A stretch of 64,000 nucleotides of DNA, taken from positions 245,109 through 309,108 of the forward strand of contig DISH01000004.1 of assembly GCA_002421665.1 (NCBI GenBank). Reading direction: 5' to 3'. Below, piece by piece: positions 3,706 to 16,742 of this stretch. Both the position numbers and the translations under genes were made by a program. Numbering within the stretch: the first letter of the stretch is position 1; the number at the start of each line of letters is the position of its first letter. This DNA comes from Candidatus Omnitrophica bacterium UBA6215 (GTDB lineage: Bacteria > Omnitrophota > Gorgyraeia > Pluralincolimonadales > Pluralincolimonadaceae). The notes below the pieces were generated by a model. That model was not told the origin of the DNA. It did not search any database and was given only the letters and a program-made list of their open reading frames with translations.

Positions 3706-4743
3706 ATGCGCGTCGCTAAGAACTTATTGGGTCCCGACTACTGCTATGACCCGTCAAGGACAGCGGATACGCTCAACCCGGGGCAGAAAGAGGCGAGAGA
3801 GGAGTTCTTGAGGGAGATAGACTCAAAGGGACTTTATACAGTACTCGAGAGGTGCCCTTTTTGCGGCAATGAAGCGTGTACACAGATCTCCGAAACGGAT
3901 GCCAGGGGTCTTCCCTGCGCTATCGCGGTATGTGACAGGTGCGGCGGTTGTTTTAAGCTTAAGGTTTTTACGCCTGAGGCCGCCGCGTTTCATTATGGAA
4001 AGATATCATACCGGCTAAGGGGTAAAGACCCGTGCACGCGGGCGGTTGAGAAGCTGTTTTGGGACAGGGTGAAGATGTTCGCCTGTCCGCGCTACAATTT
4101 CATAAGGCGTTTCGTAAAACTTGAGCCCGGCAGGGACCTGGTTGCGGAGTTCGGGTGCGGTGACGGCGCGAACCTGATGCCATGGAAGAAGAACGGGTTC
4201 GATGTGCTCGGGATCGAATATGATCCGGCTATGTGCAGGTTCGGGCGCGAAAAAGGGATGGACCTGGTACCGGCTGACTTTATGACCTATGAATTCGGAG
4301 ACAGGAAGCCGAATCTGGTGATACTCTCCCATTTTCTCGAGCATGTGCCGGATATATCTGCGGTGCTCAGCCGATTGCGTTCGGTAGCCGGGCCTAAGGG
4401 AAAAGTTTTTATCGAGGTACCGGGCGCAAGGGTCCACGGGATAAGGAAACCTCTGTCGGGATTCGACGTGGAGCATAACTATTATTTTGATCTGGGCTCG
4501 CTCTCAGGAGTTCTGGAAAAGAACGGGTTTAGTAAGGATTACGGCGATGAGTTCATCCGGGTTATGTGCTCCTCGACTTGCGCCCGGCCGGCAGCCTTCC
4601 CTGCAAAACCGGGTTACAGAAGGCTCGGTGATATCATGAGAGATGCAGAGGAAGGCAGATTGAGGATAAAGCTGCTTGATAAATTCAATAATGTATATTA
4701 CAGGCTGCGCTACGCGGCCATATCCGCAGGAGCCAAATTATGA
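3706..4743 (+). CDS. SAM-dependent methyltransferase with N-terminal Cys4 zinc-ribbon (sugar C-methyltransferase-like architecture)
   Basis: CPFCGN...CDRCGG zinc ribbon followed by MT motif I EFGCGDGANL. The ATG at 3706 lies 3 nt past the upstream stop (a GTG at 3694 is also possible). Confidence 0.7.
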   Translation: MRVAKNLLGPDYCYDPSRTADTLNPGQKEAREEFLREIDSKGLYTVLERCPFCGNEACTQISETDARGLPCAIAVCDRCGGCFKLKVFTPEAAAFHYGKISYRLRGKDPCTRAVEKLFWDRVKMFACPRYNFIRRFVKLEPGRDLVAEFGCGDGANLMPWKKNGFDVLGIEYDPAMCRFGREKGMDLVPADFMTYEFGDRKPNLVILSHFLEHVPDISAVLSRLRSVAGPKGKVFIEVPGARVHGIRKPLSGFDVEHNYYFDLGSLSGVLEKNGFSKDYGDEFIRVMCSSTCARPAAFPAKPGYRRLGDIMRDAEEGRLRIKLLDKFNNVYYRLRYAAISAGAKL

Positions 4744-5471
4744 AAAAGGCAGGGACTATAGCGATGATACCCGCGAGGATGGGCAGTACGAGATTGGCCA
4801 TGAAGAACCTCGCTTTGGTAGCCGGAAAGCCTATGATCTATTACGCGATAAAGGCCGCGAAGGATTCACGCGTTTTCGACAGGATAGTAGTTAACTCGGA
4901 GAGCGATGTTTTTGCGCGAATAGCGAAACGCTACGGTGTGGATTTCTATAAAAGGCCGGAACAGTGGGCCGGTTCGACGGTCAAATCTGATTTTGTGGTC
5001 TACGATTTTATTTCAAATAACCCGTGCGATATGGTAGCCTGGGTGAACCCGACGTCGCCGTTGCAGCAAGCCGATGAGGTAAGGCGCGCGGTTGAGCATT
5101 TCAAGAAAGAAAAGCTCGATTCGATGATAACGGTCAAGGATGAGCAGGTCCATTGCGTTTACCGCGGTAAACCGGTCAATTTTGACATTAAAAAGGTGTT
5201 TGCACAGACCCAGGACCTACTTCCCGTACAACCTTTCGTGTATTCGGTGATGATGTGGAAATCTGATATATTCAGGAGCGAGTTCGAGAAGAGAGGTCGA
5301 GCTTTCTTTTGCGGAAAGACGGGATATTTTCCCGTAAGCAAGCTCTCGGCCGTCATAATAAAAAGACAGGAGGACCTTATGCTTGCGGATTACCTGTTGA
5401 AGTCATTGTCAAGAGGCGCTGCTTACAGGGTCCGTTACGATAAACTCGCCGTAAAAGGCAGGAGAGGTTAA
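4740..5471 (+). CDS. acylneuraminate/Kdo-type cytidylyltransferase (CTP_transf_3 family, CMP-sugar synthetase)
   Basis: Hallmark N-terminus IAMIPARMGSTRLAMKNL...GKPMIYYAI and ~240 aa size. ATGA overlap with the upstream gene. Confidence 0.85.
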   Translation: MKKAGTIAMIPARMGSTRLAMKNLALVAGKPMIYYAIKAAKDSRVFDRIVVNSESDVFARIAKRYGVDFYKRPEQWAGSTVKSDFVVYDFISNNPCDMVAWVNPTSPLQQADEVRRAVEHFKKEKLDSMITVKDEQVHCVYRGKPVNFDIKKVFAQTQDLLPVQPFVYSVMMWKSDIFRSEFEKRGRAFFCGKTGYFPVSKLSAVIIKRQEDLMLADYLLKSLSRGAAYRVRYDKLAVKGRRG

Positions 5472-5472
5472 A

Positions 5473-6819
5473 GTGGGAAAGCTTGTATCTATCATAATAA
5501 GGACTAAAGACGAGGAACGTTGGATAACGCAATGCCTTAACAGCGTATTTGAACAGGAATATAAGGATTTTGAGGTCATACTTGTCGATAATGAGAGCCA
5601 GGACAAAACGCTGGAGAAGGCGAGACAGTTCAAGCTGGCGAAAGTGGTCAAATGCAGCGACTACCTTCCGGGCAAAGCGCTCAACATCGGCATAAATGAA
5701 GCCAGGGGAGAGCTTATCGCCTGCCTGTCAGGGCACTGCATCCCGGTAAACGGCAATTGGCTGGGCAGCCTGGTCAGGGACTTTGATGACGACAAGGTCG
5801 CGGGCGTATACGGTCGCCAGGAACCTATGAGCTTTACCCCTGACATGGACAAACGGGACTTGGCGCTTGTGTTCGGGCTGGACAGGAGGGCGCAGGTCAA
5901 GGACAGTTTTTTCCATAACGCGAACAGCATGATACGCAGGGATATCTGGCAGAAGGAACCCTTCGATGAATCGGTGACGAACATCGAAGACAGGGTCTGG
6001 GCGCAAAAGGTGCTGCAGGCGGGTTACCGTATTATCTACGAGCCCGACGCGAGCGTTTACCATTATCACGGTATCCACCAGGACGGCAACAGGGAAAGGT
6101 GCGCGAATGTCGTGAGGATACTCGAGAACCTGCACGCGGGTTATAATTATAAGTCCATCGATGCCGCCAAGCTTAATACCGTCGCCGTTATACCGGTAAA
6201 GGGCGAGATTAAATATCTTGCCGGTAAGCCGCTGGCGGAATATACGATAAGGCGCGCGCTTGAATCTAAATACATAAAAAACGTAATCATTTCAACCGAC
6301 AACCCGGAATTGGCGAAAATAGCCCGCGATATGGGGGCCAAGGCTCCTTTCCTCAGGGATGCCTCGATGTCCAAGGAATATATAGACATCGGGCGGGTCC
6401 TGCAGTATTCCCTGGGCAGGATCGAGGAGGGAGGTATATTCCCCGACCTCATTGTGAGTCTTGAGATAACTTTTCCGTTCAGGCCCGAAGGCCTGCTTGA
6501 TGACATGATCCTGCAGTTGACGCAGAAAGGCCTCGACAGCGTCATCGCGGTCAAGCCGGAGAATAAGACCGTATGGAAAGAGAATGACGGCAGGCTCATG
6601 CAGATCGAAGGGAGCCTTACTCCCAGGCAGTTCAAGGAACCGAGTTTCCTTGAACTTAAGGGAATAGGCTGTGTTACGCATCCTGAGTTCTTGCGCGAGG
6701 GCAGTCTTTTGGGGGAAAAGGTCGGTATATATGAAATTGACAACCCGTATTCATCCATAGAGGTCAGAGGTGATGAGGATTTCAAGCTGGCGGAAAAACT
6801 CATAAAGGGGTGGTTCTAA
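5473..6819 (+). CDS. bidomain protein: N-terminal GT2 glycosyltransferase fused to C-terminal acylneuraminate-type cytidylyltransferase
   Basis: N-terminal VSIIIRTKDEERWITQCL...VILVDNESQD is a GT2 fold. The C-terminus from ~residue 235 (VAVIPVKGEIKYLAGKPL..., ISTDNPELAKIA) is CTP_transf_3-like. GTG start preceded by GGAGAGG. Confidence 0.8.
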   Translation: MGKLVSIIIRTKDEERWITQCLNSVFEQEYKDFEVILVDNESQDKTLEKARQFKLAKVVKCSDYLPGKALNIGINEARGELIACLSGHCIPVNGNWLGSLVRDFDDDKVAGVYGRQEPMSFTPDMDKRDLALVFGLDRRAQVKDSFFHNANSMIRRDIWQKEPFDESVTNIEDRVWAQKVLQAGYRIIYEPDASVYHYHGIHQDGNRERCANVVRILENLHAGYNYKSIDAAKLNTVAVIPVKGEIKYLAGKPLAEYTIRRALESKYIKNVIISTDNPELAKIARDMGAKAPFLRDASMSKEYIDIGRVLQYSLGRIEEGGIFPDLIVSLEITFPFRPEGLLDDMILQLTQKGLDSVIAVKPENKTVWKENDGRLMQIEGSLTPRQFKEPSFLELKGIGCVTHPEFLREGSLLGEKVGIYEIDNPYSSIEVRGDEDFKLAEKLIKGWF

Positions 6820-6820: not shown

Positions 6821-7819
6821 GTGAATGTTTTCATAGGCCGCGAATTCGAGAAGTACTATGAGTCTTCTCCCCTGGTCCTGGTTGACGCAGGCGCCAGGGG
6901 AGGTCTCCAGAAGAATTGGAAGCGTGCGCGTAAACATCTTGAGATGATAGGATTTGAGCCCGACACCGCGGAATTTGAAAGACTTTCCGCTTCAAAGCCG
7001 CGCGCGGTGAGATATATAAATACCGCGCTGTACAGCAGGAAAGCGCGGATAAAATTATTCCTGACGAGGAACAGGGGTGTTTCTTCGATATACAGGCCCG
7101 ACGCAGCCTTTCTTGGAAAGTTCCCCGATAAAGAGCGTTATGATATAACCGGCGAGATCGAGACAGATGCGGAACCTCTTGACGGTGTCCTTGCTTTGAA
7201 TGGCATACCTGATGCGGATTTCTTGAAACTGGATACTCAGGGGAGCGAACTTGATATACTTAAGGGAGCTTCCGTGACCGTTGATAAAAAACTTTTTGGC
7301 ATAGAGGCGGAAGCCGAAACCGCACCTGTATATGAGAATCAGCCTCTCCTGGCGGATGTAGACGCTTTCATAAGGTCCAGGGGTTATTTTCTTTTCGATA
7401 TAAGACCGTTTTACTGGAAGAGATCCGCAGGGGTTTTTTACGGCGGTTCTAAGGGGCAAATGATCTTCGCGGACCTGCTCTATCTCAGGGAGCCGGCAAG
7501 CCTTGCGTCGATCATCTCAGGCATACCGGGCGAGGACGCGCGGAGGTCAAAAGTGATGAAAGCCGTCTCCATCTGTGTATTATACGGTTACATTGATTAT
7601 GCTATGGAGATATTCGATTCTTTCGGAGATATGTTCGGCGCCAGGGAAAGAAAGGCTTTCGAGCGCTGCACTCGCGGGAGAGTAACTATAGGAAGAATTA
7701 TACCGGGTTTCAGGGGAAGGGGCAGGCTGGCTGACGCCATACATGCCGTATACAGGATAGTCCATCCTGAATCCAGGGGATGGGTCAAACAAGGCCGCGC
7801 GCTCGGCAATACGGAATAA
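6821..7819 (+). CDS. FkbM-family methyltransferase
   Basis: VLVDAGARGG ... IGFEPD ... FLKLDTQGSELDILKGA matches the FkbM (Methyltransf_21) pattern. GTG start. Confidence 0.8.
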   Translation: MNVFIGREFEKYYESSPLVLVDAGARGGLQKNWKRARKHLEMIGFEPDTAEFERLSASKPRAVRYINTALYSRKARIKLFLTRNRGVSSIYRPDAAFLGKFPDKERYDITGEIETDAEPLDGVLALNGIPDADFLKLDTQGSELDILKGASVTVDKKLFGIEAEAETAPVYENQPLLADVDAFIRSRGYFLFDIRPFYWKRSAGVFYGGSKGQMIFADLLYLREPASLASIISGIPGEDARRSKVMKAVSICVLYGYIDYAMEIFDSFGDMFGARERKAFERCTRGRVTIGRIIPGFRGRGRLADAIHAVYRIVHPESRGWVKQGRALGNTE

Positions 7820-7834
7820 TCAACGGAGATCTTG

Positions 7835-8659
7835 ATGGAAAAATATGAATGCTGGCAAACCGGAGACCATCCGGTCCTTTTTGATTCAAAGGTCTATTAT
7901 CCTTCTTTCTGCCTTGGCAGGGTTTATTCGTTATTCAATGAGTTCAGATTGATGGAGCGCTTTATCGGGCAAGCCGCGTCCGGGACATTGTTAGAGGTCG
8001 GATGTGCAGGAGGGGAGCTCTACAGGTATTTTAAGAATGTATACCCCGGGCTTAAGTATACCGGCGCCGATGTCTCCAAGACTGCGGTTGAGATGGCCGG
8101 GAAGAAATATCCCGAAGGCAGGTTTATCGCCACGGATACCGACCTCGCCGCCCTTAAAGGAACCGGGCCGGAATACCTGTTCTCCAGGGATGTTGTACTG
8201 CATCAGGATAAACCTTTTGATTTTCTCGGGAAATTATGTTCGCTGCCATCAAAAGGGCTCTTTATCAGGTTGAGGACCAGGGACAAGGGACCTACCGAGA
8301 ACGACCCGGAGAAGTCTTGCCAGCGTTACCTGGGAAGCTGGATCCCTTACATGATAATGAATTGCGATGAGCTCATGAATTATATACGTTCACTCGGGGT
8401 TGCTTCCGAAGTCCATATCGTAAAGAACTATATGGTGCTTGGCGGACGAAACAACCGTTATCTTTCGAAAGACTGTTACCTGGAGTCGACGGGGACCTCC
8501 GAGACAGCGCTGTATATTAAGATCGGCAGATCCGCCGGGACGTCTTTTAGCGCGACATCGGCGAAAGAGGATGCGCCCATACCGGTCGTTGACAGGGCCC
8601 TCTATAAATTCATGAAACACGTCGTCAGACCGAAACCTGACGCCAAGGTTTGGTGGTGA
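7835..8659 (+). CDS. class I SAM-dependent methyltransferase
   Basis: Motif I LLEVGCAGGELY. GGAG lies 6 nt upstream of the ATG at 7835 (a TTG at 7832 is also possible). Confidence 0.75.
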   Translation: MEKYECWQTGDHPVLFDSKVYYPSFCLGRVYSLFNEFRLMERFIGQAASGTLLEVGCAGGELYRYFKNVYPGLKYTGADVSKTAVEMAGKKYPEGRFIATDTDLAALKGTGPEYLFSRDVVLHQDKPFDFLGKLCSLPSKGLFIRLRTRDKGPTENDPEKSCQRYLGSWIPYMIMNCDELMNYIRSLGVASEVHIVKNYMVLGGRNNRYLSKDCYLESTGTSETALYIKIGRSAGTSFSATSAKEDAPIPVVDRALYKFMKHVVRPKPDAKVWW

Positions 8660-9441
8660 GCGGCCGCAGGTACTTATGCGGCCTTGGCAGGAAAGTTTTC
8701 CTGCCGTCGAAAGACGACGGTATACTGTCCAGGATCTCGAGGAAGATCTTTGACCTGCGCTTTGTTCTTTTGGACCAAAAGTCCAAAGACCGCCTGAGCA
8801 GGGAAATCTGGAGCGGTGATGCCGGCGGAAGCTGGATAGAGTTCAAGCGCGTAAAATACTTAAAAGGAGAGATGGGCGGTTTCCTGCGCGATGTCCGCGG
8901 GCCGCTGGAGGCTATGGCGACGGATTACTTGAAGAATAACATGCGTTGCGGGAATGTCATTGATATCGGTACCGGCAGCGGTGAATTTTGTTTTGCCCTT
9001 GCGGGGAAGATCCCGAACGTATTATTTACGGGGCTTGACCTTAACCGCGAGGCCGTAACAAAAAACATGGCTGATGCCTGCTCTAAGGGTCTCATGGACA
9101 GGATCGGGTTCGAGTGCGCGGATGCCGTTGAATGGTTCAAGTCCCGGCCCGGGGCAGGAGAATTCCTGGCGTTATCGGTCGGCACACTAAAATTCTTCGT
9201 CCCGGCGCGGCTGAAAGAGCTGATAAAGGCGATGAAGATGTCATCAGGAAAGTTCGCTTTGGGCATCTGTGAAGAATCTGCCCCCGGTTCAACGCGTTCA
9301 ACATATTCCGGTACCATGGGTTACAGGCATGATTATATCTCGCTCTTTAAGCGCGAAGGTCTCGTTCTCGTTTCCGAGAAGAGGTTTTTTGCGGGCGGAA
9401 CGCCCATATTGTGTGCACTTGCCCGCTACGAGGGAAGATGA
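8650..9441 (+). CDS. class I SAM-dependent methyltransferase
   Basis: Motif I VIDIGTGSGEF. Start uncertain: candidates are TTG 8650, ATG 8872 or ATG 8914. Confidence 0.6.
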   Translation: MVVSGRRYLCGLGRKVFLPSKDDGILSRISRKIFDLRFVLLDQKSKDRLSREIWSGDAGGSWIEFKRVKYLKGEMGGFLRDVRGPLEAMATDYLKNNMRCGNVIDIGTGSGEFCFALAGKIPNVLFTGLDLNREAVTKNMADACSKGLMDRIGFECADAVEWFKSRPGAGEFLALSVGTLKFFVPARLKELIKAMKMSSGKFALGICEESAPGSTRSTYSGTMGYRHDYISLFKREGLVLVSEKRFFAGGTPILCALARYEGR

Positions 9442-10496
9442 TGATTTCTGCTGATTTCAGACACGAGGTCCTTGGAGTTAATAATGCTGAAGACTGGCTA
9501 AATGTCGCCGGCGAGTGCGCTTATGCCCCGTATAATGTCTTTGACCCGGATTTTATAGAACGAAACACGCGGGAGGGCTCTAACGCGTTGAGCGTGATAG
9601 TCTATGAAACCTCAAGCGGGAAACCGGCGGCCATATTCCCCGCCGAACTCTATACGAAATCGGCATCGTTGATAATTATCAGGATCGCTAAATCTTCCGC
9701 GTACGGAGGACTTATGATCGCCGGCGGGTATATGCGCGAGGCCGGTTCGATAAAGAGATATTTTTATGAAAATATCATATCAGGTTATTACCGATGTAAG
9801 GCTATTGACATGGTTGAGGTTATCCCGTCCCCTCTGCTGGAGATAGATTTTCCTGGGCTTACGCATGCTGCGGTGCCGTTCTATCGGGCGGAGGCTGAAA
9901 TAAATTCTTTGCTGTATACCGACCTGAAAGGCGATTTTACCGAAAAACTCGGTTATAACGTCAAGAGGGAATCGTTTAAGGGTATGGATGCCCTGAAAAG
10001 CCTTAAGGTGATGACAGGTTCTGAAGAAGGCGCTTTTGGGCTGTTGAAAGGGCTTGAATGCGGGAAAGCCGCGACGTTAAATGTTGAACCTATACCTGGG
10101 CGGGTCCTTGAAAAAATGCTGGGTTCACGGATGGTGGCGACAGTTATCGCGGTTTCCGGTGGTAAGGCGCTGGCCGCCGTATCTTACAGCTGCCGCGGGA
10201 AACTGGCCACTTTGCATTATAACGCGAGCACTCCGGAGGGGAAGAAGTCATTTGTCAACAAGGGTCTTATGCTTTGGTGTATTCAGGATTGCAAAAATAA
10301 GGGCGCTGACTATTTTGTGCTCGGCAACGGATGGGAACAGGGAAGGGATAAGAAAGAGAGCGAGCAACTCGAAAGGATGGCTTTTTTCAAAAAGAGTTTT
10401 TCCACTTCCGAGTCTTCCACCTTCAGGTTCAGCATGCCGCTTACTCTTAAAGGTCTCCTGGCGCAGGCGGGCAACCGCGCGATAAAGAGACGATGA
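9438..10496 (+). CDS. FemAB/CelD-like GNAT (Acetyltransf_6, BioF2-like) protein
   Basis: C-terminal ...KGADYFVLGNGWEQG... and overall FemABX-like layout. ATGATGA overlap with the upstream gene. Confidence 0.6.
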   Translation: MMISADFRHEVLGVNNAEDWLNVAGECAYAPYNVFDPDFIERNTREGSNALSVIVYETSSGKPAAIFPAELYTKSASLIIIRIAKSSAYGGLMIAGGYMREAGSIKRYFYENIISGYYRCKAIDMVEVIPSPLLEIDFPGLTHAAVPFYRAEAEINSLLYTDLKGDFTEKLGYNVKRESFKGMDALKSLKVMTGSEEGAFGLLKGLECGKAATLNVEPIPGRVLEKMLGSRMVATVIAVSGGKALAAVSYSCRGKLATLHYNASTPEGKKSFVNKGLMLWCIQDCKNKGADYFVLGNGWEQGRDKKESEQLERMAFFKKSFSTSESSTFRFSMPLTLKGLLAQAGNRAIKRR

Positions 10497-12400
10497 TGGA
10501 AAAAAAGAAAATGGAAACGGTATTTCTTGCTACGGCTTCCGAAGCCTCTCAATTCCTTGCCCCCGGAGAGTCGGACGCGGGCAGTTCCATAATTGCCATG
10601 AGCCCTTCCGTAAAGGTTTTATTGGAGAAGAACGGGCTCAAACCCGGAAGCTCGGGCTGCTATTTCGATACAGGCTCCCATAAAAAACTGCTTGAGAAGT
10701 CCGATGAGATAGTAAGATGGATAAAAGAGAACGCCAGGTTCGAGGATATGGGCCTGGGCACGGCGGAAGGATACGAAAGCTCCTTTATCTATTGGACGAG
10801 GTTCTCGGTACATCATTGTATGTGGGCAATAGAGGTGGTCTCAAGGGCGGTTGAGGACCTCAAACCGGATTCGCTTGCCGCGTTCGGTATCCCGGAAGTG
10901 CCCGTACCGAGTTTATATTTGGAGAAGGAAGATAAGGTGGCCGGCAGGCTGGCGGAAAGGGTGGCCTCTAAAAACGGACTTACCTTCAGGGAATTATCCC
11001 GCAAACCCCGCAGGTTCACCCGGCAGGTTTTGTCATGTTCTATTTACATAAATTCCGCTGTCAGGTTCCTGCTTGAGACATTCAGGTTTTACGCCTGGCT
11101 TTTAAAGAATTCATACGGCAAGGGAAAAAAGACGGCGGTTTTTACCACCTCATCCTACCAGATGGATAAGACTGCGCAAGAGATGGTAAAGGAGCGTCCC
11201 GGCCTGCGTTGTGTTATGCTCATCTATCCGATAGATACGCTTTTTTATATCCCAGGACCGCTTTTTTTTCTGGACTCTCCGACCGCAGGCATGTATATAA
11301 AACGACAAAGGGAACATTTTGCTGCGCTCGCAGAGAAAATCGAATCCGATAAGGGTATCTTTTCTTACAGGGGGATATTCTTCGGTGATATAGTGGCCCA
11401 AAGGCTCAGGATGAGCGTTTTTAACTATATTACAGGTCTTCAGATGTGGACGCTTAAACTTAATACGGCTATAAGGACTATCAACCCCGGCATTGTGGTA
11501 TCCAACGGCAATCGTGACGATGATATAATAACCGCGAAACTTTGTTCGGGGATGGGCATCGAGTCTTTAATAATCAGCCATGGTTCTCATGTAAAGCCGG
11601 GGAATTTTTACGAGAGGACGGAATGGTCTGAGCTTGGGGCAAAGCTTATAGGCGGGCCTTTTTCCTTGGTTGCCATGCAGTCCCCGTTGGCGGAGGGTTA
11701 TCTCGGGGAGTTTCCGCCGCGCGGCAGACCGGTAAAGACCGGTCCTTTGATATGGGGCAAGCCCGTTGACAGGAGCTCCGGAGAGTCTTTTGCCGCTCAG
11801 GTATTGGGGGATAAGTATGTGAAGGGGAAGACCAGGATCATCGTTCATGCCGGTACCCCAAAGCCAAGCAAGAGCCTGAGACTTTATGTTTATGAAACCC
11901 CTGAGGAATATATTAATGCCATTAGGGAATTGGCGGACGCGGTCGAACGGGTATCGGACGCGGTCCTGATAGTGAAGTTCCGTCCAAGCCCGGAGATAAG
12001 CATAGAGGATATTAAGGCGTCGGTGCCTTTTTCGAAAAAGGTTATATTGAGTGTAGGGGAGCCTTTCCTTAAGGTTCTGGCTATGGCCGACCTTCTGGTA
12101 AGTTTCTCGTCTACTACGATCGAGGAGGCCGTACAGAACGGGGTGCCGGTCCTGCTGTACGGCGGGCAGGGGAGGTATTCGCACATCCCGGCTTATGAGG
12201 TTGAAGACAGTTCTGCGCCTGTCGAAAGGAGCGCGGCGTATCATGTACGCGGCCCGGGCGGACTGCTGCCGGCCCTCGATGGCATCCTTCGTCTGGGCAT
12301 AGACGGACAGGGAAGGGACAAAGGGCTTTTTGACAAGTTCATATACCCGGAAGGGGAACGCATCCCATTGGAGAAGATAATAGATGAAGTCAGCCGATAA
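10493..12400 (+). CDS. large protein with TagF-like (glycosyl/glycerophosphate transferase, GT-B) C-terminal domain; N-terminal region of unknown function
   Basis: C-terminus LIVKFRPSP ... ADLLVSFSSTTIEEAVQNGVPVL resembles the Glyphos_transf (KPHP ... DYSS) pattern. The N-terminal ~400 aa are unrecognised. Confidence 0.5.
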   Translation: MMEKKKMETVFLATASEASQFLAPGESDAGSSIIAMSPSVKVLLEKNGLKPGSSGCYFDTGSHKKLLEKSDEIVRWIKENARFEDMGLGTAEGYESSFIYWTRFSVHHCMWAIEVVSRAVEDLKPDSLAAFGIPEVPVPSLYLEKEDKVAGRLAERVASKNGLTFRELSRKPRRFTRQVLSCSIYINSAVRFLLETFRFYAWLLKNSYGKGKKTAVFTTSSYQMDKTAQEMVKERPGLRCVMLIYPIDTLFYIPGPLFFLDSPTAGMYIKRQREHFAALAEKIESDKGIFSYRGIFFGDIVAQRLRMSVFNYITGLQMWTLKLNTAIRTINPGIVVSNGNRDDDIITAKLCSGMGIESLIISHGSHVKPGNFYERTEWSELGAKLIGGPFSLVAMQSPLAEGYLGEFPPRGRPVKTGPLIWGKPVDRSSGESFAAQVLGDKYVKGKTRIIVHAGTPKPSKSLRLYVYETPEEYINAIRELADAVERVSDAVLIVKFRPSPEISIEDIKASVPFSKKVILSVGEPFLKVLAMADLLVSFSSTTIEEAVQNGVPVLLYGGQGRYSHIPAYEVEDSSAPVERSAAYHVRGPGGLLPALDGILRLGIDGQGRDKGLFDKFIYPEGERIPLEKIIDEVSR

Positions 12401-14213
12401 ACGTTCGTCAGCCATGTGGTTCTTCCTGAAACGTTACAAAAGGATATATGTCGCCCTTTTCCTGGTTACCATTACTTATGCGGTCCTCGAGAGCATAAAT
12501 ATATCCATACTGCTGCCCCTGTTCGATACGGTCCTTAATAATACCGGCCGGGAAGGAAGACTTTTCGCGTTCATAGATGCCGTTATTTCGCATATGCCGT
12601 TCAAACAGCCTTTTATGAATGTCTTTTTGCTGGCGATCCTGCTCGTAATTTTCAAGGAGATTGCCGCTTTCGTAAGGATAAAACTTGTCGGGTACGGTGT
12701 AGGGAAGGTCGTATGCGACGTCAAAGAGGAGGTATTCGATAAATTCGCGTTTTCCGATTACCAGTTCTTCCTGGATAATAAACAAGGGAAGTTGATCTAT
12801 GACCTGCTGACCGCTTCGGGCAGGCTGGGCAATTGCCTTCAATTCTTCCCGGACCTCGTTACCGCCGTTTTGATGACGGTCACCATAGGCGTGCTTCTTT
12901 TCTCCATATCCGTCAAGATGACCATCTTCCTTATGATCGTAGGGGTGATTTACAGCGTAGCAATGCATTTCCTCGCGCAGAGGGTTTCGTACAATATAGG
13001 GGCCGAGAGGGCCATGGTCAGCACCCAGGCCAACGTGATAGCTAATGAGCTTATAGACGGCGTAAAACATATCAAGGTCTCCGGCTCATTCGATATATGG
13101 AGGGGTAATTTCCGCAGGGCGGTAAGGAAGTTCAAAGACCTGGTAATAAGGGATTTTATCTGGGTCAACGTTCCCGACAGGATGATACAGGTAATACCCG
13201 TCGTGATACTTACTGCCATCGCGTTCTACCTTTACAAGAGGGCGGATGCGGTGGAATTCCTGACCGGGAACCTGGTGACCATGGGTGTATACATATATGC
13301 GTTTTACAGGGTCAGCCCGTACCTGGCTTCTTTCGGAAGGCTCAGGATGCAGATAATGGGTTCCTTGCCGGACGTGGAACTTCTTTATGAGGACCTGTTA
13401 AAAGAGACCAATTTTATAAAGGACGGCACGCTCGACATAAGGGATTTCCGCAGGGAGATAAGGTTTAGCAGGGTCAACTTTGCCTACAAAGGCAGTAAGG
13501 AAGTGTTAAGGGACATCGACCTGAGCGTGGAAGCGGGCAAGACTACGGCTGTAGTCGGTTCTTCGGGCAGCGGTAAGACTACATTGATCAACCTAATGGT
13601 ACGGCTCTTCGACCCGGATAGCGGCAGTATCACGATAGACGGGGTTGACCTCAAGGATATCAGGCATTCCTCCCTTATACACCTTATAGGCATGGTCAGC
13701 CAGGACACGTTCATATTCAACGGGACCATAAGGGACAATATTGTCTTCGGCCTTGAAGGTATCGCGGAGGACAAATTGGTCGCGGCATCCAAGCTTGCCA
13801 ACGCCCACGGTTTTATCGAAAGTTTCCCGTCGAAATATGATACGGTCGTCGGGGATAAAGGTCTTAAGTTATCCGGAGGTCAAAGGCAGAGGATAGCCAT
13901 AGCCAGGGCGATATTGCGCGACCCGAAGATACTGATACTCGACGAGGCCACGAGCTCGCTTGACTACCACTCAGAGGTAACGGTCCAGCAGGCGATAAAC
14001 ACGGTATCCAAGAACAGGACGGTGGTAGTTATAGCCCATCGGTTGTCCACCATCATAAACGCGGATAAGATAATCGTCCTTGACAGGTTCAGGATAGCGG
14101 ACCAGGGCACGCATGCCGAACTCATGGGCCGCGAAGGGATATACAAATCACTTTATGAAAGCCAGGGGAAATTGCATAATATACAAACCGGAGGTAATGC
14201 CAGCGATGAGTGA
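12384..14213 (+). CDS. ABC transporter, fused permease/ATPase (MsbA/PglK-type exporter)
   Basis: Six predicted TM helices N-terminally; Walker A GSSGSGKTT, signature LSGGQRQRIAIARA, Walker B ILILDEATS. No C39 peptidase domain. Confidence 0.9.
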   Translation: MKSADKRSSAMWFFLKRYKRIYVALFLVTITYAVLESINISILLPLFDTVLNNTGREGRLFAFIDAVISHMPFKQPFMNVFLLAILLVIFKEIAAFVRIKLVGYGVGKVVCDVKEEVFDKFAFSDYQFFLDNKQGKLIYDLLTASGRLGNCLQFFPDLVTAVLMTVTIGVLLFSISVKMTIFLMIVGVIYSVAMHFLAQRVSYNIGAERAMVSTQANVIANELIDGVKHIKVSGSFDIWRGNFRRAVRKFKDLVIRDFIWVNVPDRMIQVIPVVILTAIAFYLYKRADAVEFLTGNLVTMGVYIYAFYRVSPYLASFGRLRMQIMGSLPDVELLYEDLLKETNFIKDGTLDIRDFRREIRFSRVNFAYKGSKEVLRDIDLSVEAGKTTAVVGSSGSGKTTLINLMVRLFDPDSGSITIDGVDLKDIRHSSLIHLIGMVSQDTFIFNGTIRDNIVFGLEGIAEDKLVAASKLANAHGFIESFPSKYDTVVGDKGLKLSGGQRQRIAIARAILRDPKILILDEATSSLDYHSEVTVQQAINTVSKNRTVVVIAHRLSTIINADKIIVLDRFRIADQGTHAELMGREGIYKSLYESQGKLHNIQTGGNASDE

Positions 14214-15135
14214 GCGAGGATACACGATACAGAACAAGGAGATAAGGTTCGAGGTTACCAACATGTGCAACGCGAACTGCGTTATGTGCCCCAGGGAGAA
14301 GATGACGCGCCCGCAGGGCATACTGGACATGGGCCTCTATATTAGGACGCTGGATGAAGCCTGTTCCATGGGCGCTACGGTCGTCAGCCTCGAGAATTTC
14401 GGTGAGACCTTCATGGATCCGCTGTTCTTCGAAAGGGCCGCGTATGCCAAGGGCAAGGGTATGAAAGTCCTTACCATTACCAACGGTTCGCTCTTCAACA
14501 AAAAGGCCGCGGAAAGGTCCCTGTATTTCATAGATAAAATAAGGTTCAGCGTTTACGGCACCACAAAGGAAGTATACGAGTCCATACACAGAGGCCTCAA
14601 GTACGACGCGGTGGTAGAGAATATCGAATACCTCCTTGACCTGAAAAAGAGGACCGGCAGCGCCGCCCCGAAGGTTGAGGTCTATTTCCTGTATATGGAC
14701 CAGAATAAACACCAGGCGGAGGAGTTTAAGGAGAAGTGGCTCGGCCGGGTCGATGACATAGCGATGTGGAAGCCCCACAATTGGAGCGACGGGCGCTCAT
14801 ACAGGCAACTCGATGGTGATAAGAAAAAGGTTACCTGCGGCAGGCCTTCCAGGGGGCCTATACAGGTGCAGTGGGACGGTCTTGTGGTCCCGTGCTGCTT
14901 CGATTACAATTCCAGCATTGTTCTCGGCGACCTGAATAAGCAGACGTTAAGGCAGGTTCTGGAAAGCAAAGATTATGATGACTTCAGGAAAGCTCACGCA
15001 AAAGCTGAATTCTCGCTCTACCCGTTCTGTGACAGCTGCGACCAGTTGAGGAAAAGGGAAGACGTCCTTGTCTTTACCACCATAAAAGACGCCAAGGTAG
15101 GGGCGGTCAATACGACCTACGAAAAAGTGGACTGA
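14206..15135 (+). CDS. radical SAM protein with C-terminal SPASM/twitch Cys-rich domain
   Basis: CNANCVMC (CxxxCxxC) near the N-terminus; C-terminal cysteines CGRP...PCCFD...CDSCDQ. Start at ATG 14206 (GGAGG 11 nt upstream) or ATG 14197; overlaps the ABC gene end. Confidence 0.85.
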   Translation: MSERGYTIQNKEIRFEVTNMCNANCVMCPREKMTRPQGILDMGLYIRTLDEACSMGATVVSLENFGETFMDPLFFERAAYAKGKGMKVLTITNGSLFNKKAAERSLYFIDKIRFSVYGTTKEVYESIHRGLKYDAVVENIEYLLDLKKRTGSAAPKVEVYFLYMDQNKHQAEEFKEKWLGRVDDIAMWKPHNWSDGRSYRQLDGDKKKVTCGRPSRGPIQVQWDGLVVPCCFDYNSSIVLGDLNKQTLRQVLESKDYDDFRKAHAKAEFSLYPFCDSCDQLRKREDVLVFTTIKDAKVGAVNTTYEKVD

Positions 15136-16742
15136 TGCCTGACTCGGCCGGCGGCACAATACTCTTCAACCCGGTAAGCGTTGTCCATTACAGGAACGTC
15201 CCGCGTTTTGCCGGGGGGCTTCCCGGTTGGAAGGTCAAGAAGATAGTCAACCCGGACATGCCCTGGTCGTCAAAGATGATCGATGATGACGATATCCGGT
15301 TCGAGCGCGGAATACTTCCCCGGAAGGCGCTTGACGGTGTCAGCGCCGTAGTAGTATTTTCCTCGCAGCCCAGGGTTCCTTCCGCTTCGCTGATAACCGG
15401 GGCTGCCGTCAGGGGCATACCCGTTATTGCGGTAGAGGAAGTGCTGCAGATGATGCTTGAACAGGGGTATGTTAACGAGTATTTCCTTCCCGTGGACAGG
15501 CTTTACGCGGGTTCCGATTACGAAAAGAATGGTTTTACGGATTTTGGGATCCCCGGTGAGGCGGTGGAATCGGCTGGTAATGTCTTCGGGCATGTGGAGC
15601 CGGGGGAAGTCCCGGAAGAAAAGAAGGACGCGATCAGGCGCAGGTTAGGCATATCTCCGGGCAGGAAGGTCGCGGTATTGAGCCTTGCTTACCAGACGCC
15701 GAGCGGAGAAACGCTCGAGGTCAGGAGGCGCCTTATCGAGACCGTATCCCGCGGGTTGCCGGCGGATTATGTTCTTGTAGTAAAGCCTCACCCTGCGGAA
15801 CAAGATGCGGGGGTATGTGATTTTATAAAAGAGTGCGCCCCTTCGGCCGCGGCGGCGGACCGCTTTACCCCTATAGGGGACATACTGGCGATAGCAGATG
15901 TCCTCTTAAACCGGGGGAATTCGCAGGTAGTTATCGACGCCTTTAACAGGAGAGTGCCGGTAATTGTTGTCCCGTTGGGGAGGAGGACATTTTTCCACGG
16001 GTTGCTGGACGGCGTGATAGCGGATGATGAGCAGGGGATAAAGAAAGCGATCGAACTGATAGGCCGTGAGGGTTTCAAGCTTTACGGAGTTGTTACATCG
16101 CTCTACGCCGGGTCTTCAGCCGATGATGTCCTGCGGAATGTTTGTGCGGGGATAGCGCAGGCCGCGCGATCACGGCAGGTATTTGAGCGGACGCAAAGGC
16201 TCTGCGACCTTGCAGTGTATTGGGCATGGATGGGATATCCCTCGCAGGCGGCCAGGATATTGCGCGAATGCGGCCATATAAGCGCCCGGCCGGCCCTGTC
16301 GAGGCTAATAGCGTCCAGGGCAACGACGGCGGATTTCGAGACGCTTAGGGATACTTGGGCTTCACGAAGATACAGGGCATGGCTGCTTAAAAGCATGCGG
16401 ATAAAGCAGGCTTTTGATTCAGGAGAACGCCTGGATGACAACCAGACGGGGTGGCTGGCCGACTATCCTCCGCGGATGAACAGGGAGTATTTCGTGGATT
16501 TTGCCTGTATGCTCTGCTGGTGCCTGCTCGGGTCCGGCAGGACGGCGGAATGTGCGGATATATTCGACAAGATAAGGGAAGAATACGGATATTTGAAGTT
16601 CGTGCGTTGTATTGGGGCCGCTTGCGCCCGCGGCAAGGCGGCGCCCGATCTCTCGTTATGGAAGACCTGCGCGGTCTCCGGACTGAAACGTAGCGCAAGG
16701 AATGCATTGTTTGAGATGAGGATGGCGATAAAAAATATATGA
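15135..16742 (+). CDS. putative TagF-like GT-B transferase (Glyphos_transf-like), otherwise unknown function
   Basis: VLVVKPHP ... ADVLLNRGNSQVVIDAFNRRVPVI resembles the TagF-family core. The C-terminal ~200 aa are an unrecognised helical region. Confidence 0.45.
   Translation: MPDSAGGTILFNPVSVVHYRNVPRFAGGLPGWKVKKIVNPDMPWSSKMIDDDDIRFERGILPRKALDGVSAVVVFSSQPRVPSASLITGAAVRGIPVIAVEEVLQMMLEQGYVNEYFLPVDRLYAGSDYEKNGFTDFGIPGEAVESAGNVFGHVEPGEVPEEKKDAIRRRLGISPGRKVAVLSLAYQTPSGETLEVRRRLIETVSRGLPADYVLVVKPHPAEQDAGVCDFIKECAPSAAAADRFTPIGDILAIADVLLNRGNSQVVIDAFNRRVPVIVVPLGRRTFFHGLLDGVIADDEQGIKKAIELIGREGFKLYGVVTSLYAGSSADDVLRNVCAGIAQAARSRQVFERTQRLCDLAVYWAWMGYPSQAARILRECGHISARPALSRLIASRATTADFETLRDTWASRRYRAWLLKSMRIKQAFDSGERLDDNQTGWLADYPPRMNREYFVDFACMLCWCLLGSGRTAECADIFDKIREEYGYLKFVRCIGAACARGKAAPDLSLWKTCAVSGLKRSARNALFEMRMAIKNI

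What the first reader, a model, noticed from the sequence alone, without database searches (positions are those of the whole stretch)
4740..16742. Two CMP-sugar synthetase domains plus two TagF-like GT-B proteins suggest a nonulosonate/Kdo-containing or phosphodiester-linked polymer
Two CTP_transf_3 (NeuA/KdsB-type) cytidylyltransferase domains lie back to back at 4740–5471 and the C-terminal half of 5473–6819, but no nonulosonic-acid/Kdo synthase is visible in the window. The two large proteins at 10493–12400 and 15135–16742 share TagF-like (KPHP ... DYSS-type) C-terminal cores. From established knowledge, that family makes glycerol/ribitol-phosphate or sugar-phosphate polymers and capsule polymerases, yet both proteins have long unrecognised extra regions. 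Together this hints at a teichoic-acid-like or CMP-activated acidic sugar polymer built on an LPS-type scaffold.
Basis: partly seen in the sequence, partly recalled or inferred. Interest (0 to 1): 0.6.

Follow-up and report, generated by a model that had tools for sequence, protein, structure and literature searches.

The report
Uncharacterised CMP-acid-sugar glycan cassette
The flagged genes are the core of a conserved, unstudied gene cassette, found mostly in uncultivated bacteria, that probably makes, activates with CMP, decorates and attaches an acidic sialic-acid-like sugar to a surface glycan; the "teichoic-acid polymerase" label holds only loosely, for one of the two large proteins.

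Summary
All four ORFs exist as described. Both cytidylyltransferase (CT) domains pass Pfam CTP_transf_3, but neither is canonical. CT1 keeps the CTP loop and has lost the C-terminal acidic pair. CT2, fused to a DXD-less GT2, lacks the CTP loop.

The "missing" synthase lies about 6.4 kb upstream of the window: a NeuB-family gene beside a canonical third CT, with acetamidino genes WbuX/HisH/WbuZ and an Epimerase_2 gene.

Neither large protein passes the TagF HMM. Confident models show both are GT-B proteins.
- B (15135-16742) has an invariant K-P-H-P motif. TagF ranks among its top fold hits. Its relatives hit the polysialyltransferase and Glyphos_transf models and carry TPR tails.
- A (10493-12400) is a rare family of about 100 clusters, closest to UDP-GlcNAc 2-epimerase/MurG folds, with Arg where B has His.

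In 45 loci carrying an A homologue, A travels with CT1 (33), GT2-CT2 (28), a GFO_IDH_MocA (27) and an Ldh_2 dehydrogenase (27), and an ABC exporter (23). B forms a sub-module with two radical-SAM enzymes.

Most likely this is a cytoplasmic pathway for a tailored CMP-ulosonic sugar, exported by the ABC transporter and here probably ligated to LPS. It is a new variant of a known kind, of moderate interest.

The parts
191..1267 (+). Ldh_2-family 2-hydroxyacid/ketoacid dehydrogenase; core cassette member
   Evidence: PF02615 at 4e-102. Orthologues (231-578 bits) lie next to A homologues in 27 of 45 loci. Family motifs are conserved.
1264..2934 (+). B12-binding radical-SAM enzyme 'a' (probable C-methyltransferase or tailoring enzyme)
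   Evidence: PF02310 and PF04055. Below every NCBIfam equivalog cutoff. Present in 16 of 45 loci.
2900..4743 (+). Two SAM-dependent methyltransferases (2900-3703 and 3694-4743)
   Evidence: Methyltransf_23/11/12 hits. The second recurs in 12 of 45 loci.
4740..5471 (+). CT1: atypical CTP_transf_3 cytidylyltransferase
   Evidence: PF02348, 73 bits, N-terminal half only. PseF model 82 bits against a 205.7 cutoff. Best solved relatives are CMP-Neu5Ac synthetases, aligned over aa 6-133. The P-loop AMIPARxGSxRLxxKN is conserved. The C-terminal D-x-D seen in the upstream CT is I-I-K in 29 orthologues. Present in 33 of 45 loci.
5473..6819 (+). GT2-CT2 fusion: GT2 domain without DXD, plus a degenerate CTP_transf_3 domain (about 6190-6816)
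   Evidence: PF00535 at 5e-24 and PF02348 at 2.8e-8. The CT2 N-terminus reads IPVKGE--IKYL, an 8-residue deletion that removes the GSxxxxKN loop. LSGHC stands where GT2 enzymes carry DXD. Both features are conserved in 28 orthologues. 56-68% identical between Omnitrophota and a Margulisiibacteriota-type locus.
6821..9441 (+). FkbM-type methyltransferase and two further methyltransferases (6821-7819, 7832-8659, 8650-9441)
   Evidence: Pfam hits. Lineage-specific: found in 0-2 of 45 loci.
9411..10496 (+). 361-aa protein with no family assignment
   Evidence: No Pfam or NCBIfam hit above threshold. Not found in other loci.
10493..12400 (+). Protein A: new GT-B family related to Epimerase_2/MurG, with a helix-rich N-terminal region of about 330 aa; signature gene of the cassette
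   Evidence: No curated family. About 100 clusters among 5.8 billion proteins, all labelled 'hypothetical'. AlphaFold model pLDDT 92.5. Foldseek top hits are UDP-GlcNAc 2-epimerases, NeuC, BshA and MurG. hhalign to E. coli WecB is colinear over A 322-557. Invariant residues include H363, G364, A453, T455, R497, S537, S540, E544, E545.
12384..14213 (+). Fused TMD-NBD ABC exporter (MsbA/PglK/HepA type)
   Evidence: PF00664 and PF00005. HepA family 408 bits and MsbA 365 bits, both below cutoff. At least four hydrophobic segments by a Kyte-Doolittle scan. Present in 23 of 45 loci.
14113..15135 (+). Radical-SAM/SPASM enzyme. The gene calls on record give a 309-aa or 326-aa product, shorter than the 340-aa ORF.
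   Evidence: PF04055 and PF13186. Gene calls. Sits immediately upstream of B in the window, L005 and L050.
15135..16742 (+). Protein B: HP-motif GT-B transferase (aa 1-330) with an all-helical, TPR-like C-terminal domain (aa 330-535)
   Evidence: Model pLDDT 91.5. Foldseek: UDP-sugar 2-epimerases and TagF (3l7l at rank 4, E 1.7e-8). Invariant H18, E102, K217-P-H219-P220, R260, G261, S263. Relative P0155 hits polysialyltransferase PF07388 at 29.4 bits, above the 23.3 cutoff. 887 remote relatives. Of 46 scanned, 16 carry TPR repeats and 5 hit Glyphos_transf.
16739..18292 (+). B12-binding radical-SAM enzyme 'b', immediately downstream of B
   Evidence: PF02310 and PF04055. Same position in L005 and L050. 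One B homologue, P0153, carries an N-terminal B12-binding domain.
18282..19214 (+). Conventional GT2 glycosyltransferase that closes the module
   Evidence: PF00535 at 4e-34. Recurs in the closest loci, L010 and L012.
45281..46759 (+). Context: Wzy_C-type O-antigen ligase or polymerase, followed by two GT9 heptosyltransferases (46756-48815)
   Evidence: PF04932 at 1.6e-24 and PF01075 twice. About 12 predicted membrane segments.

Best explanation
Window 191-19214, together with about 10 kb upstream of the window, encodes a cytoplasmic pathway. It makes, CMP-activates, tailors and transfers an acidic 2-ulosonic (nonulosonate-type) sugar.

Shown:
- A NeuB-family synthase with its own canonical cytidylyltransferase, acetamidino genes and an Epimerase_2 gene lies just upstream.
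- The finding's genes belong to a conserved cassette: GFO_IDH_MocA, Ldh_2, CT1, GT2-CT2 and A, often with an ABC exporter. A sub-module consists of radical-SAM/SPASM, B and B12-radical-SAM.
- All the enzymes are soluble.

Inferred:
- The two dehydrogenases, the radical-SAM enzymes and the methyltransferases remodel the acid sugar or its CMP ester.
- CT1 activates the remodelled or a second ulosonic acid.
- CT2 has lost catalysis and serves as a CMP or CMP-sugar binding module for the DXD-less, hence probably metal-independent, GT2 domain.
- B is a sialyltransferase/TagB-like transferase. Its invariant His-Pro handles the CMP phosphate, and H18 and E102 act on the acceptor. It adds the residue to a lipid-linked glycan.
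- A is a second GT-B enzyme acting on a nucleotide sugar, either a transferase or a PseG/NeuC-like hydrolase.
- The MsbA/PglK-type exporter moves the product across the inner membrane. In this organism the Wzy_C-type enzyme then joins it to lipid A-core.
For: - Upstream module: Epimerase_2, WbuZ, HisH, WbuX (367 bits), a full-length PseF-like CT and NeuB (174 bits).
- CT1 retains the CTP loop, and its best solved relatives are CMP-Neu5Ac synthetases.
- Cassette co-occurrence in 45 loci: CT1 33, GT2-CT2 28, GFO 27, Ldh_2 27, ABC 23. The same gene order appears in L005, L007, L050 and L051.
- B: the HP motif is invariant even across remote relatives. TagF is among the top fold hits. Family members hit the polysialyltransferase and Glyphos_transf models.
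- Published precedent: the Tannerella Pse/Leg transferases are TagB-superfamily GT-B proteins with D/E-D/E-G and HP motifs (PMC5420450).
- GT-B plus TPR architecture is known in TagF-like capsule polymerases and in the pseudaminic-acid flagellin transferase FlmG (PMC5974469; PMC7591256; preprint abstract).
- The paper read states that DXD motifs are usually absent from sialyltransferases, which need no divalent metal. This fits the DXD-less GT2.
- No TM segments or signal peptides in A, B, CT1 or GT2-CT2.
- Other cassette loci carry alternative 2-oxoacid-forming enzymes: HpcH/HpaI aldolase in 8 and HMGL-like in 6.
Against: - There is no biochemical evidence for any of these proteins.
- CT1 lacks the C-terminal acidic pair, which from my knowledge of CMP-Neu5Ac synthetase and KdsB binds Mg2+. 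It may not be a standard synthetase.
- NeuB lies within 10 kb of A in only 4 of 45 loci, so the cassette's substrate need not be a NeuB product.
- B itself misses every curated HMM. Its acidic pair (E101-E102) is not an exact D/E-D/E-G motif.
- A's closest folds are epimerases and hydrolases, not transferases.
- The tight SPASM-B-B12 linkage, and the one fusion of B to a B12-binding domain, could mean that B serves the radical-SAM chemistry rather than glycosyl transfer.
Confidence: 0.5

Rival explanations
1. A teichoic-acid-like phosphodiester polymer. B, and perhaps A, would be TagF-type phosphotransferases that polymerise a CDP-activated polyol phosphate or sugar phosphate, as TagF-like capsule polymerases do. 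The product would leave through the ABC transporter.
For: - TagF structures rank 4-6 among B's fold hits.
- 5 of 46 remote relatives of B hit Glyphos_transf, best E 4.4e-7.
- B has two conserved histidines (H18, H219), and two catalytic histidines define the TagF family. A TPR-like tail is common in TagF-like capsule polymerases (PMC5974469).
- An APH-type kinase and a 377-aa protein that weakly hits Glyphos_transf (19.1 bits) lie upstream.
Against: - B scores 11 bits against the Glyphos_transf cutoff of 22.1, and A gives no hit.
- None of the proteins I scanned in or just upstream of the window looks like a TagD/TarI-type CDP-glycerol or CDP-ribitol synthase or a polyol-phosphate dehydrogenase. 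All three CTs are CTP_transf_3, the CMP-ulosonate type.
- A B relative passes the polysialyltransferase model, not the TagF model.
Confidence: 0.15
2. A and/or B are not glycosyltransferases.
- A would be a PseG/NeuC-like nucleotide-sugar hydrolase that feeds a NeuB-independent route: free sugar, oxidised by GFO_IDH_MocA and Ldh_2 to a 2-ulosonic acid, activated by CT1 and transferred by GT2-CT2.
- B would be a CMP-sugar-binding partner of the two flanking radical-SAM enzymes.
For: - A's best fold hits are UDP-GlcNAc 2-epimerases, including the hydrolysing NeuC.
- A's motif SFSSTTIEEA aligns with TDSGGIQEEA of WecB.
- A, GFO, Ldh_2, CT1 and GT2-CT2 form the invariant core, while NeuB is rarely adjacent.
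- The Ldh_2 protein matches the 3-dehydro-L-gulonate 2-dehydrogenase model at 132 bits, below its cutoff, so the family includes sugar-acid 2-dehydrogenases.
- SPASM-B-B12 synteny, and a fusion of a B12-binding domain to B.
Against: - In the hhalign alignment the WecB residues D95 and E117, catalytic from my knowledge, are N and S in A. That alignment is weak: E 0.0057, probability 6%.
- HP-motif GT-B proteins with TPR tails are known transferases.
- Only one B fusion was seen.
- NeuB could simply lie beyond the 10-kb flanks, as it does in this genome.
Confidence: 0.2
3. A protein-glycosylation module. B would use its helical TPR-like domain to bind a protein substrate such as flagellin, pilin or an S-layer protein and attach the nonulosonate, as FlmG does.
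For: - FlmG combines TPR repeats with a GT-B domain and modifies flagellin with pseudaminic acid; related FlmG enzymes handle legionaminic acid (PMC7591256; preprint abstract).
- The cassette occurs in lineages that I do not expect to make LPS.
Against: - Here the module sits inside a glycan locus of more than 50 kb with a WecA-like initiating enzyme, an ABC exporter, a ligase and heptosyltransferases.
- I saw no flagellar or S-layer genes among the proteins I scanned.
- Domain order is reversed relative to FlmG.
Confidence: 0.08

Closest known systems
Tannerella forsythia Pse/Leg-derivative transferases Tanf_01245 / TFUB4_00887 (PMC5420450)
   Same: They are GT-B proteins that databases call TagB-like. 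They carry an HP motif and an acidic motif, are encoded near CMP-nonulosonate synthesis genes, and use CMP-activated acid sugars.
   Different: They are about 445 aa with no helical tail. I could not compare sequences directly. B's acidic pair is E-E without the Gly. B misses all curated HMMs.
TagF and TagF-like capsule polymerases (Cps1B, Cps7D, Bcs3; PMC5974469)
   Same: GT-B fold with a K-x-H-P-type histidine. TagF is a top structural hit for B. TPR domains are common in this family. They work with ABC-transporter-dependent export.
   Different: B and A fail the Glyphos_transf HMM. I found no CDP-polyol supply genes. The five TagF motifs were not demonstrated. A has Arg in place of the His.
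Bacterial polysialyltransferases (GT38, PF07388) and the HP-motif sialyltransferases
   Same: CMP-sugar donors, the HP motif and the GT-B fold. A B-family member passes PF07388 at 29.4 bits against a cutoff of 23.3.
   Different: B itself does not hit the model. No GT38 structure appeared in B's top 50 fold hits. The C-terminal helical domain is different.
UDP-GlcNAc 2-epimerase / NeuC / PseG / MurG group of GT-B enzymes
   Same: They are the best fold matches for A. The C-domain motif S-x-S-x-x-x-x-E-E-A is shared, and the hhalign alignment to WecB is colinear.
   Different: A is 635 aa, with about 250 extra residues. It is below the Epimerase_2 threshold (10 bits against 30.6). The WecB carboxylates D95 and E117 are not conserved in the alignment.
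CMP-Neu5Ac / CMP-Pse / CMP-Kdo synthetases (CTP_transf_3: NeuA, PseF, KdsB)
   Same: CT1 and CT2 both pass PF02348. CT1 keeps the R...GS...KN CTP loop and a PTSPL-like motif.
   Different: CT1 replaces the C-terminal D-x-D with I-I-K. CT2 lacks the CTP loop and is fused to a GT2 domain. Neither reaches any equivalog cutoff. The canonical enzyme is a third gene upstream of the window.

Membership tests
CTP_transf_3 (PF02348), CT1 = 4740-5471 | Profile HMM above the gathering score | tested here: met
   73 bits against 22.6, but only the N-terminal half aligns.
CTP_transf_3 (PF02348), CT1 = 4740-5471 | CTP-binding loop with conserved Arg and Lys (R12 and K21 of N. meningitidis CMP-Neu5Ac synthetase; numbering from my knowledge) | tested here: met
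   AMIPARMGSTRLAMKN aligns with ILARQNSKGLPLKN of 1eyr. Conserved in 29 orthologues.
CTP_transf_3 (PF02348), CT1 = 4740-5471 | C-terminal acidic pair that binds Mg2+ (D-x-D in NeuA, D-T-x-E-D-L in KdsB; from my knowledge) | tested here: not met
   VDID of the upstream CT aligns with VIIK in CT1. I-i-K is conserved across the family.
CTP_transf_3 (PF02348), CT1 = 4740-5471 | Equivalog-level assignment (PseF, KdsB) | tested here: not met
   PseF 82 bits against 205.7; KdsB models 38-52 bits against 155-281.
CTP_transf_3 (PF02348), CT2 = C-terminal half of 5473-6819 | Profile HMM above the gathering score | tested here: met
   34.3 bits against 22.6, aa 246-353.
CTP_transf_3 (PF02348), CT2 = C-terminal half of 5473-6819 | CTP-binding loop ARxGSxxxxxKN | tested here: not met
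   IPVKGE--------IKYLAGKPL shows an 8-residue deletion, conserved in 28 orthologues.
TagF-like / Glyphos_transf (PF04464) | Profile HMM above the gathering score (22.1 bits) | tested here: not met
   B: 11 bits, E 0.2. A: no hit. Five of 46 remote relatives of B do hit.
TagF-like / Glyphos_transf (PF04464) | Two catalytic histidines (H444 and H584 of S. epidermidis TagF; PMC5974469) | tested here: inconclusive
   B has an invariant H18 after the first strand and an invariant H219 in K-P-H-P. I could not superpose them on TagF. A has R497 at the aligned position.
TagF-like / Glyphos_transf (PF04464) | Five active-site sequence motifs | not tested
   No TagF sequence alignment was available. The Foldseek output gives no residue mapping.
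TagF-like / Glyphos_transf (PF04464) | GT-B fold similar to TagF | tested here: met
   B: 3l7l_D at rank 4, E 1.7e-8, target-normalised TM 0.57. A: TagF is not in the top 50.
TagF-like / Glyphos_transf (PF04464) | CDP-glycerol or CDP-ribitol donor supply encoded nearby | tested here: not met
   No TagD/TarI/TarJ-type protein among those scanned from the window or the 10 kb upstream.
Bacterial sialyltransferase-type GT-B (HP and D/E-D/E-G motifs; PF07388 for GT38) | HP motif | tested here: met
   B: K217-P218-H219-P220 invariant in 45 family members, and H-P invariant in 46 remote relatives. A: R-P instead.
Bacterial sialyltransferase-type GT-B (HP and D/E-D/E-G motifs; PF07388 for GT38) | D/E-D/E-G motif | tested here: inconclusive
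   B has A-V-E101-E102-V, with E102 invariant, but no Gly follows.
Bacterial sialyltransferase-type GT-B (HP and D/E-D/E-G motifs; PF07388 for GT38) | Profile HMM PF07388 above the gathering score | tested here: not met
   B itself gives no hit. Family member P0155 scores 29.4 bits against 23.3.
KpsC/KpsS Capsule_synth (PF05159) | Profile HMM above the gathering score (20 bits) | tested here: not met
   No hit for A or B. P0155 scores 16 bits.
UDP-GlcNAc 2-epimerase (PF02350), for A | Profile HMM above the gathering score, and the catalytic carboxylates D95 and E117 (my knowledge) | tested here: not met
   A: 10 bits against 30.6. hhalign to WecB places N and S at D95 and E117; this is a low-confidence alignment, E 0.0057.
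Nonulosonic-acid pathway | NeuB-family synthase with a CMP-synthetase and a hydrolysing-epimerase-type gene in the locus | tested here: met
   PF03102 NeuB at L002 3587-4660, a CT at 2883-3590 and Epimerase_2 at the locus start. NeuB scores 174 and 171 bits, below the NeuB and PseI equivalog cutoffs, so the type of sugar is unresolved.

The most novel reading that the evidence does not exclude
The invariant five-gene core (GFO_IDH_MocA, Ldh_2, the Asp-less cytidylyltransferase CT1, the DXD-less GT2 fused to a pseudo-cytidylyltransferase, and the GT-B family A) would encode an undescribed route. That route would produce and transfer a new CMP-activated 2-ulosonic acid that does not depend on NeuB or KdsA. 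The sugar would be fed by oxidation of a free sugar or by HpcH/HMGL-type aldolases. The route would be shared by Omnitrophota, Nitrospirota, CPR bacteria and even a DPANN archaeon. Families A and B would then be founding members of new glycosyltransferase families.
Probability: 0.25. Interest if true: 0.7.

Novelty: new variant of a known kind. Interest (0 to 1): 0.5.

Why it matters
Few transferases for nonulosonic and other ulosonic acids are known; the paper read calls knowledge of them scarce. Surface glycans of Omnitrophota, CPR and other uncultivated lineages are, to my knowledge, essentially unstudied.

This work defines a compact, testable gene set. It contains two GT-B families absent from the curated profile libraries, a cytidylyltransferase that has swapped its acidic pair for Ile-Lys, and a GT2 fused to a degenerate cytidylyltransferase. 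If the products are active, they would widen the enzyme toolbox for CMP-sugars. They would also explain a recurrent block of 'hypothetical' genes in metagenomes.

The work also shows that 'TagF-like' motif spotting cannot tell phosphodiester polymerases from CMP-sugar transferases.

Tried and rejected
- Pfam and NCBIfam scans of A and B, including at E up to 1, gave only sub-threshold hits: DUF6716, Epimerase_2, Glyphos_transf and TIGR04326.
- Profile searches of A1 and A2 against PDB sequences gave nothing for A and only UgtP for B, at 1.9e-5.
- The A5 profile was swamped by TPR proteins.
- The 661-aa upstream protein is not detectably related to A or B.
- A metagenome scan with NeuB, meant to extend further upstream, found nothing.
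- Cluster look-ups and contig look-ups did not name the organism. The Omnitrophota assignment rests on homologues 72-77% identical.
- Literature searches for this gene combination returned nothing.
- PDB searches for the GFO and Ldh_2 proteins gave only generic relatives, with no sialic-acid oxidoreductase among the hits, so they give no substrate clue.
- I rejected a Kdo reading: no KdsA or WaaA among the proteins I scanned, and CT1 has the NeuA-type PTSPL motif rather than the KdsB-type QGDEP motif (the latter from my knowledge).

Full report
**Setting**

The whole window is one long + strand operon-like array with uniformly positive GC skew. From position 191 to about 54.5 kb it is a surface-glycan locus. 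It holds many GT2 and GT4 glycosyltransferases, sugar-nucleotide dehydratases, aminotransferases and acetyltransferases, an AsnB-type amidotransferase and a WecA-like initiating enzyme. It also holds a Wzy_C-type ligase or polymerase (45281-46759) and two GT9 heptosyltransferases. PriA and housekeeping genes follow. The closest homologues of the two large proteins, 72-81% identical, come from Candidatus Omnitrophota metagenome-assembled genomes.

**Checking the observation**

The four ORFs exist as stated.

- 4740-5471 (CT1) hits CTP_transf_3 at 4e-20.
- 5473-6819 is a fusion of a GT2 domain (5e-24) and a CTP_transf_3 domain (CT2; 2.8e-8, aa 246-353).
- 10493-12400 (protein A, 635 aa) has no Pfam or NCBIfam hit above threshold. 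Its best hits are DUF6716 at E 0.005 and Epimerase_2 at E 0.3.
- 15135-16742 (protein B, 535 aa) also has none. Its best hits are Glyphos_transf at E 0.2 (11 bits against a cutoff of 22.1) and TIGR04326 at 2.6e-4.

A and B are nevertheless distant homologues of each other. BLASTP gives 25% identity over 273 aa at E 5e-4. hhalign gives E 1e-4 at 56% probability. That alignment places B's V-K-P-H-P on A's V-K-F-R-P, and B's N-R-G-N-S on A's S-F-S-S-T. The 'KPHP' belongs to B only, and the 'DYSS-like' SFSS belongs to A only.

**The missing synthase**

The contig that carries the window is a 388-kb JGI contig, and the 10 kb upstream of the window could be read from it (locus L002). It encodes, in order:

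- the end of an Epimerase_2 gene;
- WbuZ/HisF-like, HisH and WbuX, the N-acetyl-sugar amidotransferase set that makes acetamidino groups;
- a full-length PseF-like CTP_transf_3;
- a NeuB-family synthase (174 bits for the NeuB model and 171 bits for PseI, both below the equivalog cutoffs);
- an APH-type kinase;
- a 377-aa protein that weakly hits Glyphos_transf (19.1 bits);
- a 661-aa unknown protein;
- a GFO_IDH_MocA oxidoreductase that abuts the Ldh_2 gene at window 191.

A nonulosonic-acid pathway with its own canonical cytidylyltransferase therefore lies about 6.4 kb outside the window. The Epimerase_2 gene together with NeuB suggests a legionaminic- or neuraminic-type rather than a pseudaminic-type route. 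That is my inference from the known pathways, and I did not test it.

**The cytidylyltransferase domains**

The upstream CT has all the canonical elements: AVIPARGGSKGLPRKN, LQCTTPLR and VDIDYEIEF.

CT1 keeps the CTP loop. AMIPARMGSTRLAMKN aligns with the R12 and K21 region of N. meningitidis CMP-Neu5Ac synthetase. Only its N-terminal half resembles known enzymes. At the position of the C-terminal D-x-D, all 29 orthologues read I-I-K.

CT2 has an 8-residue deletion that removes the GSxxxxKN loop (IPVKGE--IKYL). This is conserved in 28 orthologues. The fused GT2 domain carries L-S-G-H-C where GT2 enzymes normally have DXD.

CT2 is best read as a degenerate, probably non-catalytic, nucleotide-binding domain. 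CT1 is an atypical enzyme.

**Proteins A and B**

Both gave confident AlphaFold models from family alignments: pLDDT 92.5 for A and 91.5 for B.

*Protein B.* B is a GT-B domain (aa 1-330) followed by an all-helical domain.

- Its Foldseek hits interleave UDP-sugar 2-epimerases with TagF (3l7l at rank 4, E 1.7e-8, target-normalised TM 0.57).
- Invariant residues in the family include H18, just after the first strand, E102 in an E-E pair, K217-P-H219-P220, R260, G261 and S263.
- An exhaustive profile search found 887 relatives.
- In 46 remote relatives the Glu corresponding to E102 and the H-P remain invariant.
- Of those 46, 16 carry C-terminal TPR repeats and 5 hit Glyphos_transf, best E 4.4e-7.
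- One closer relative, P0155, passes the polysialyltransferase model PF07388 at 29.4 bits against a cutoff of 23.3. It hits Glyphos_transf and Capsule_synth below threshold.

B therefore belongs to the clade of HP-motif GT-B enzymes whose donors release CMP: TagB/TagF, sialyltransferases and KpsC/S.

*Protein A.* A is a closed, rare family of about 100 clusters among 5.8 billion proteins, all annotated 'hypothetical'.

- Its best fold matches are UDP-GlcNAc 2-epimerases, including NeuC, then BshA and MurG. TagF is not in the top 50.
- hhalign against E. coli WecB, whose sequence I verified against 1F6D, is colinear over A 322-557.
- That alignment pairs SFSSTTIEEA with TDSGGIQEEA. It places N and S at WecB D95 and E117. 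The alignment is weak: E 0.0057, probability 6%.

*Both.* A, B, CT1 and GT2-CT2 have no transmembrane segments or signal peptides.

**Genomic context**

I compared 45 loci that encode an A homologue with the window's proteins. Forty-two came from GTDB species representatives and three from metagenome contigs. Several sit on short contigs.

| Partner of A | Loci with an orthologue (of 45) |
|---|---|
| CT1 | 33 |
| GT2-CT2 | 28 |
| GFO_IDH_MocA | 27 |
| Ldh_2 | 27 |
| ABC exporter | 23 |
| B12 radical-SAM 'a' | 16 |
| 661-aa protein | 13 |
| SPASM radical-SAM | 11 |
| NeuB | 4, weakly |

Bit scores for the four core partners were mostly in the range expected of orthologues.

B homologues nearly always share contigs with A homologues. 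B sits in the order SPASM, B, B12-radical-SAM in the window, L005 and L050. One B homologue has an N-terminal B12-binding domain.

The cassette occurs mostly in Omnitrophota. It also occurs in Nitrospirota, CPR bacteria (Nomurabacteria, Uhrbacteria, Vogelbacteria), Elusimicrobia, Saganbacteria and Margulisiibacteriota, Latescibacterota, Dehalococcoidia, Desulfobacterota, Desulfotomaculaceae, Leptospiraceae, SAR86, SAR324 and one Micrarchaeota genome.

Other recurrent neighbours are SDR epimerases (17 loci), NTP_transferases (13), D-2-hydroxyacid dehydrogenases (8), HpcH/HpaI pyruvate aldolases (8) and HMGL-like enzymes (6). Nine of the 20 loci with full flanks have NeuB, HpcH or HMGL within 10 kb.

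**Interpretation**

The best-supported reading is a cytoplasmic pathway for a tailored, CMP-activated 2-ulosonic (nonulosonate-type) sugar.

Shown:
- the upstream NeuB/CT/acetamidino module;
- the conserved cassette;
- the HP-motif GT-B nature of B;
- the soluble nature of the enzymes;
- the fused MsbA/PglK-type exporter, with a Wzy_C-type enzyme and heptosyltransferases downstream.

Inferred:
- The dehydrogenases, three radical-SAM enzymes and five methyltransferases remodel the sugar.
- CT1 activates it.
- The DXD-less GT2, with its pseudo-CT domain, and B transfer it.
- A is a further GT-B enzyme, either a transferase or a PseG/NeuC-like hydrolase.
- The product is exported and, in this organism, joined to LPS.

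Published precedent supports reading a 'TagB/F-like' protein next to CMP-sugar genes as a nonulosonate transferase. The Tannerella Pse/Leg transferases are TagB-superfamily GT-B proteins with HP and D/E-D/E-G motifs (PMC5420450). GT-B plus TPR occurs both in TagF-like capsule polymerases (PMC5974469) and in the flagellin transferase FlmG (PMC7591256).

**Rivals**

- *A true teichoic-acid-like phosphodiester polymer* (0.15). This is weakened by the failed HMMs and by the lack of any CDP-polyol supply genes among the proteins scanned.
- *Non-transferase roles for A and B* (0.2). A would be a nucleotide-sugar hydrolase feeding a NeuB-independent oxidation route. B would be a partner of the radical-SAM enzymes.
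- *Protein glycosylation* (0.08).

None of these can be excluded without biochemistry.

**Verdict**

What is there is a new variant of a known kind: an uncharacterised but widely conserved glycan cassette. It contains two uncatalogued GT-B families and two non-canonical cytidylyltransferase domains. Interest is moderate (0.5).

Noticed in passing
Upstream of the window: L002 1-10019 (L002 position 10001 = window 191): A complete-looking nonulosonate module lies here: Epimerase_2, WbuZ, HisH, WbuX, a canonical CT and NeuB. It is followed by an APH-type kinase, a 377-aa protein that weakly hits Glyphos_transf (19.1 bits), a 661-aa unknown protein and GFO_IDH_MocA. The kinase with a TagF-like small protein could be a separate phosphotransfer step.
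   Followed up: partly
window 5473-6100 (GT2 domain of the fusion): The GT2 domain has L-S-G-H-C where the DXD metal-binding motif normally sits. This is conserved in 28 orthologues. It is consistent with a metal-independent donor such as a CMP-sugar, but this is untested.
   Followed up: partly
P0153 (B homologue, JGI 3300072015; no DNA available): This single homologue of B carries an N-terminal B12-binding domain without a radical-SAM core. It hints at a physical link between B and the cobalamin radical-SAM enzyme that normally follows it.
   Followed up: partly
window 1264-9441 and 14113-18292: Tailoring enzymes are unusually dense: two B12 radical-SAM enzymes, one SPASM radical-SAM enzyme and five SAM methyltransferases (one of FkbM type) within 18 kb. 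This implies a heavily methylated or rearranged sugar.
   Followed up: no
window 43494-45284: The initiating enzyme is a Glycos_transf_4 (WecA/MraY-like) domain fused to a CoA_binding_3 domain. From my knowledge that domain usually accompanies the other (WbaP-type) class of phosphoglycosyl transferases.
   Followed up: no
window 38557-40416 and 19272-20456: Two odd fusions or architectures: a GT1-family glycosyltransferase fused to DUF218, and a membrane-anchored transglutaminase-like protein with TPR repeats directly after the cassette.
   Followed up: no
Loci L011, L013, L019, L024, L035, L037, L045, L046 (HpcH/HpaI) and L010, L012, L019, L022, L027, L035 (HMGL-like): Cassette loci without a nearby NeuB often carry a class II pyruvate aldolase or an HMGL-like enzyme on the same strand. 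These are possible alternative synthases for a 2-keto-3-deoxy acid.
   Followed up: partly
L050 1956-2411 (Nitrospirae MAG GCA_016212185.1): A DUF386 gene sits directly upstream of GFO_IDH_MocA and Ldh_2 in this cassette copy. From my knowledge this is the YhcH family, linked to sialic-acid metabolism in E. coli.
   Followed up: no
window 14113-14213: The mechanical ORF for the SPASM radical-SAM gene overlaps the end of the ABC transporter gene by about 100 nt. The gene calls on record use later starts (309 or 326 aa).
   Followed up: no
window 22796-24316 and 30799-32529: Two polytopic membrane proteins (506 and 576 aa, 6-7 hydrophobic segments) have no family hit. They are candidates for a Wzy-like polymerase or a flippase.
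   Followed up: no
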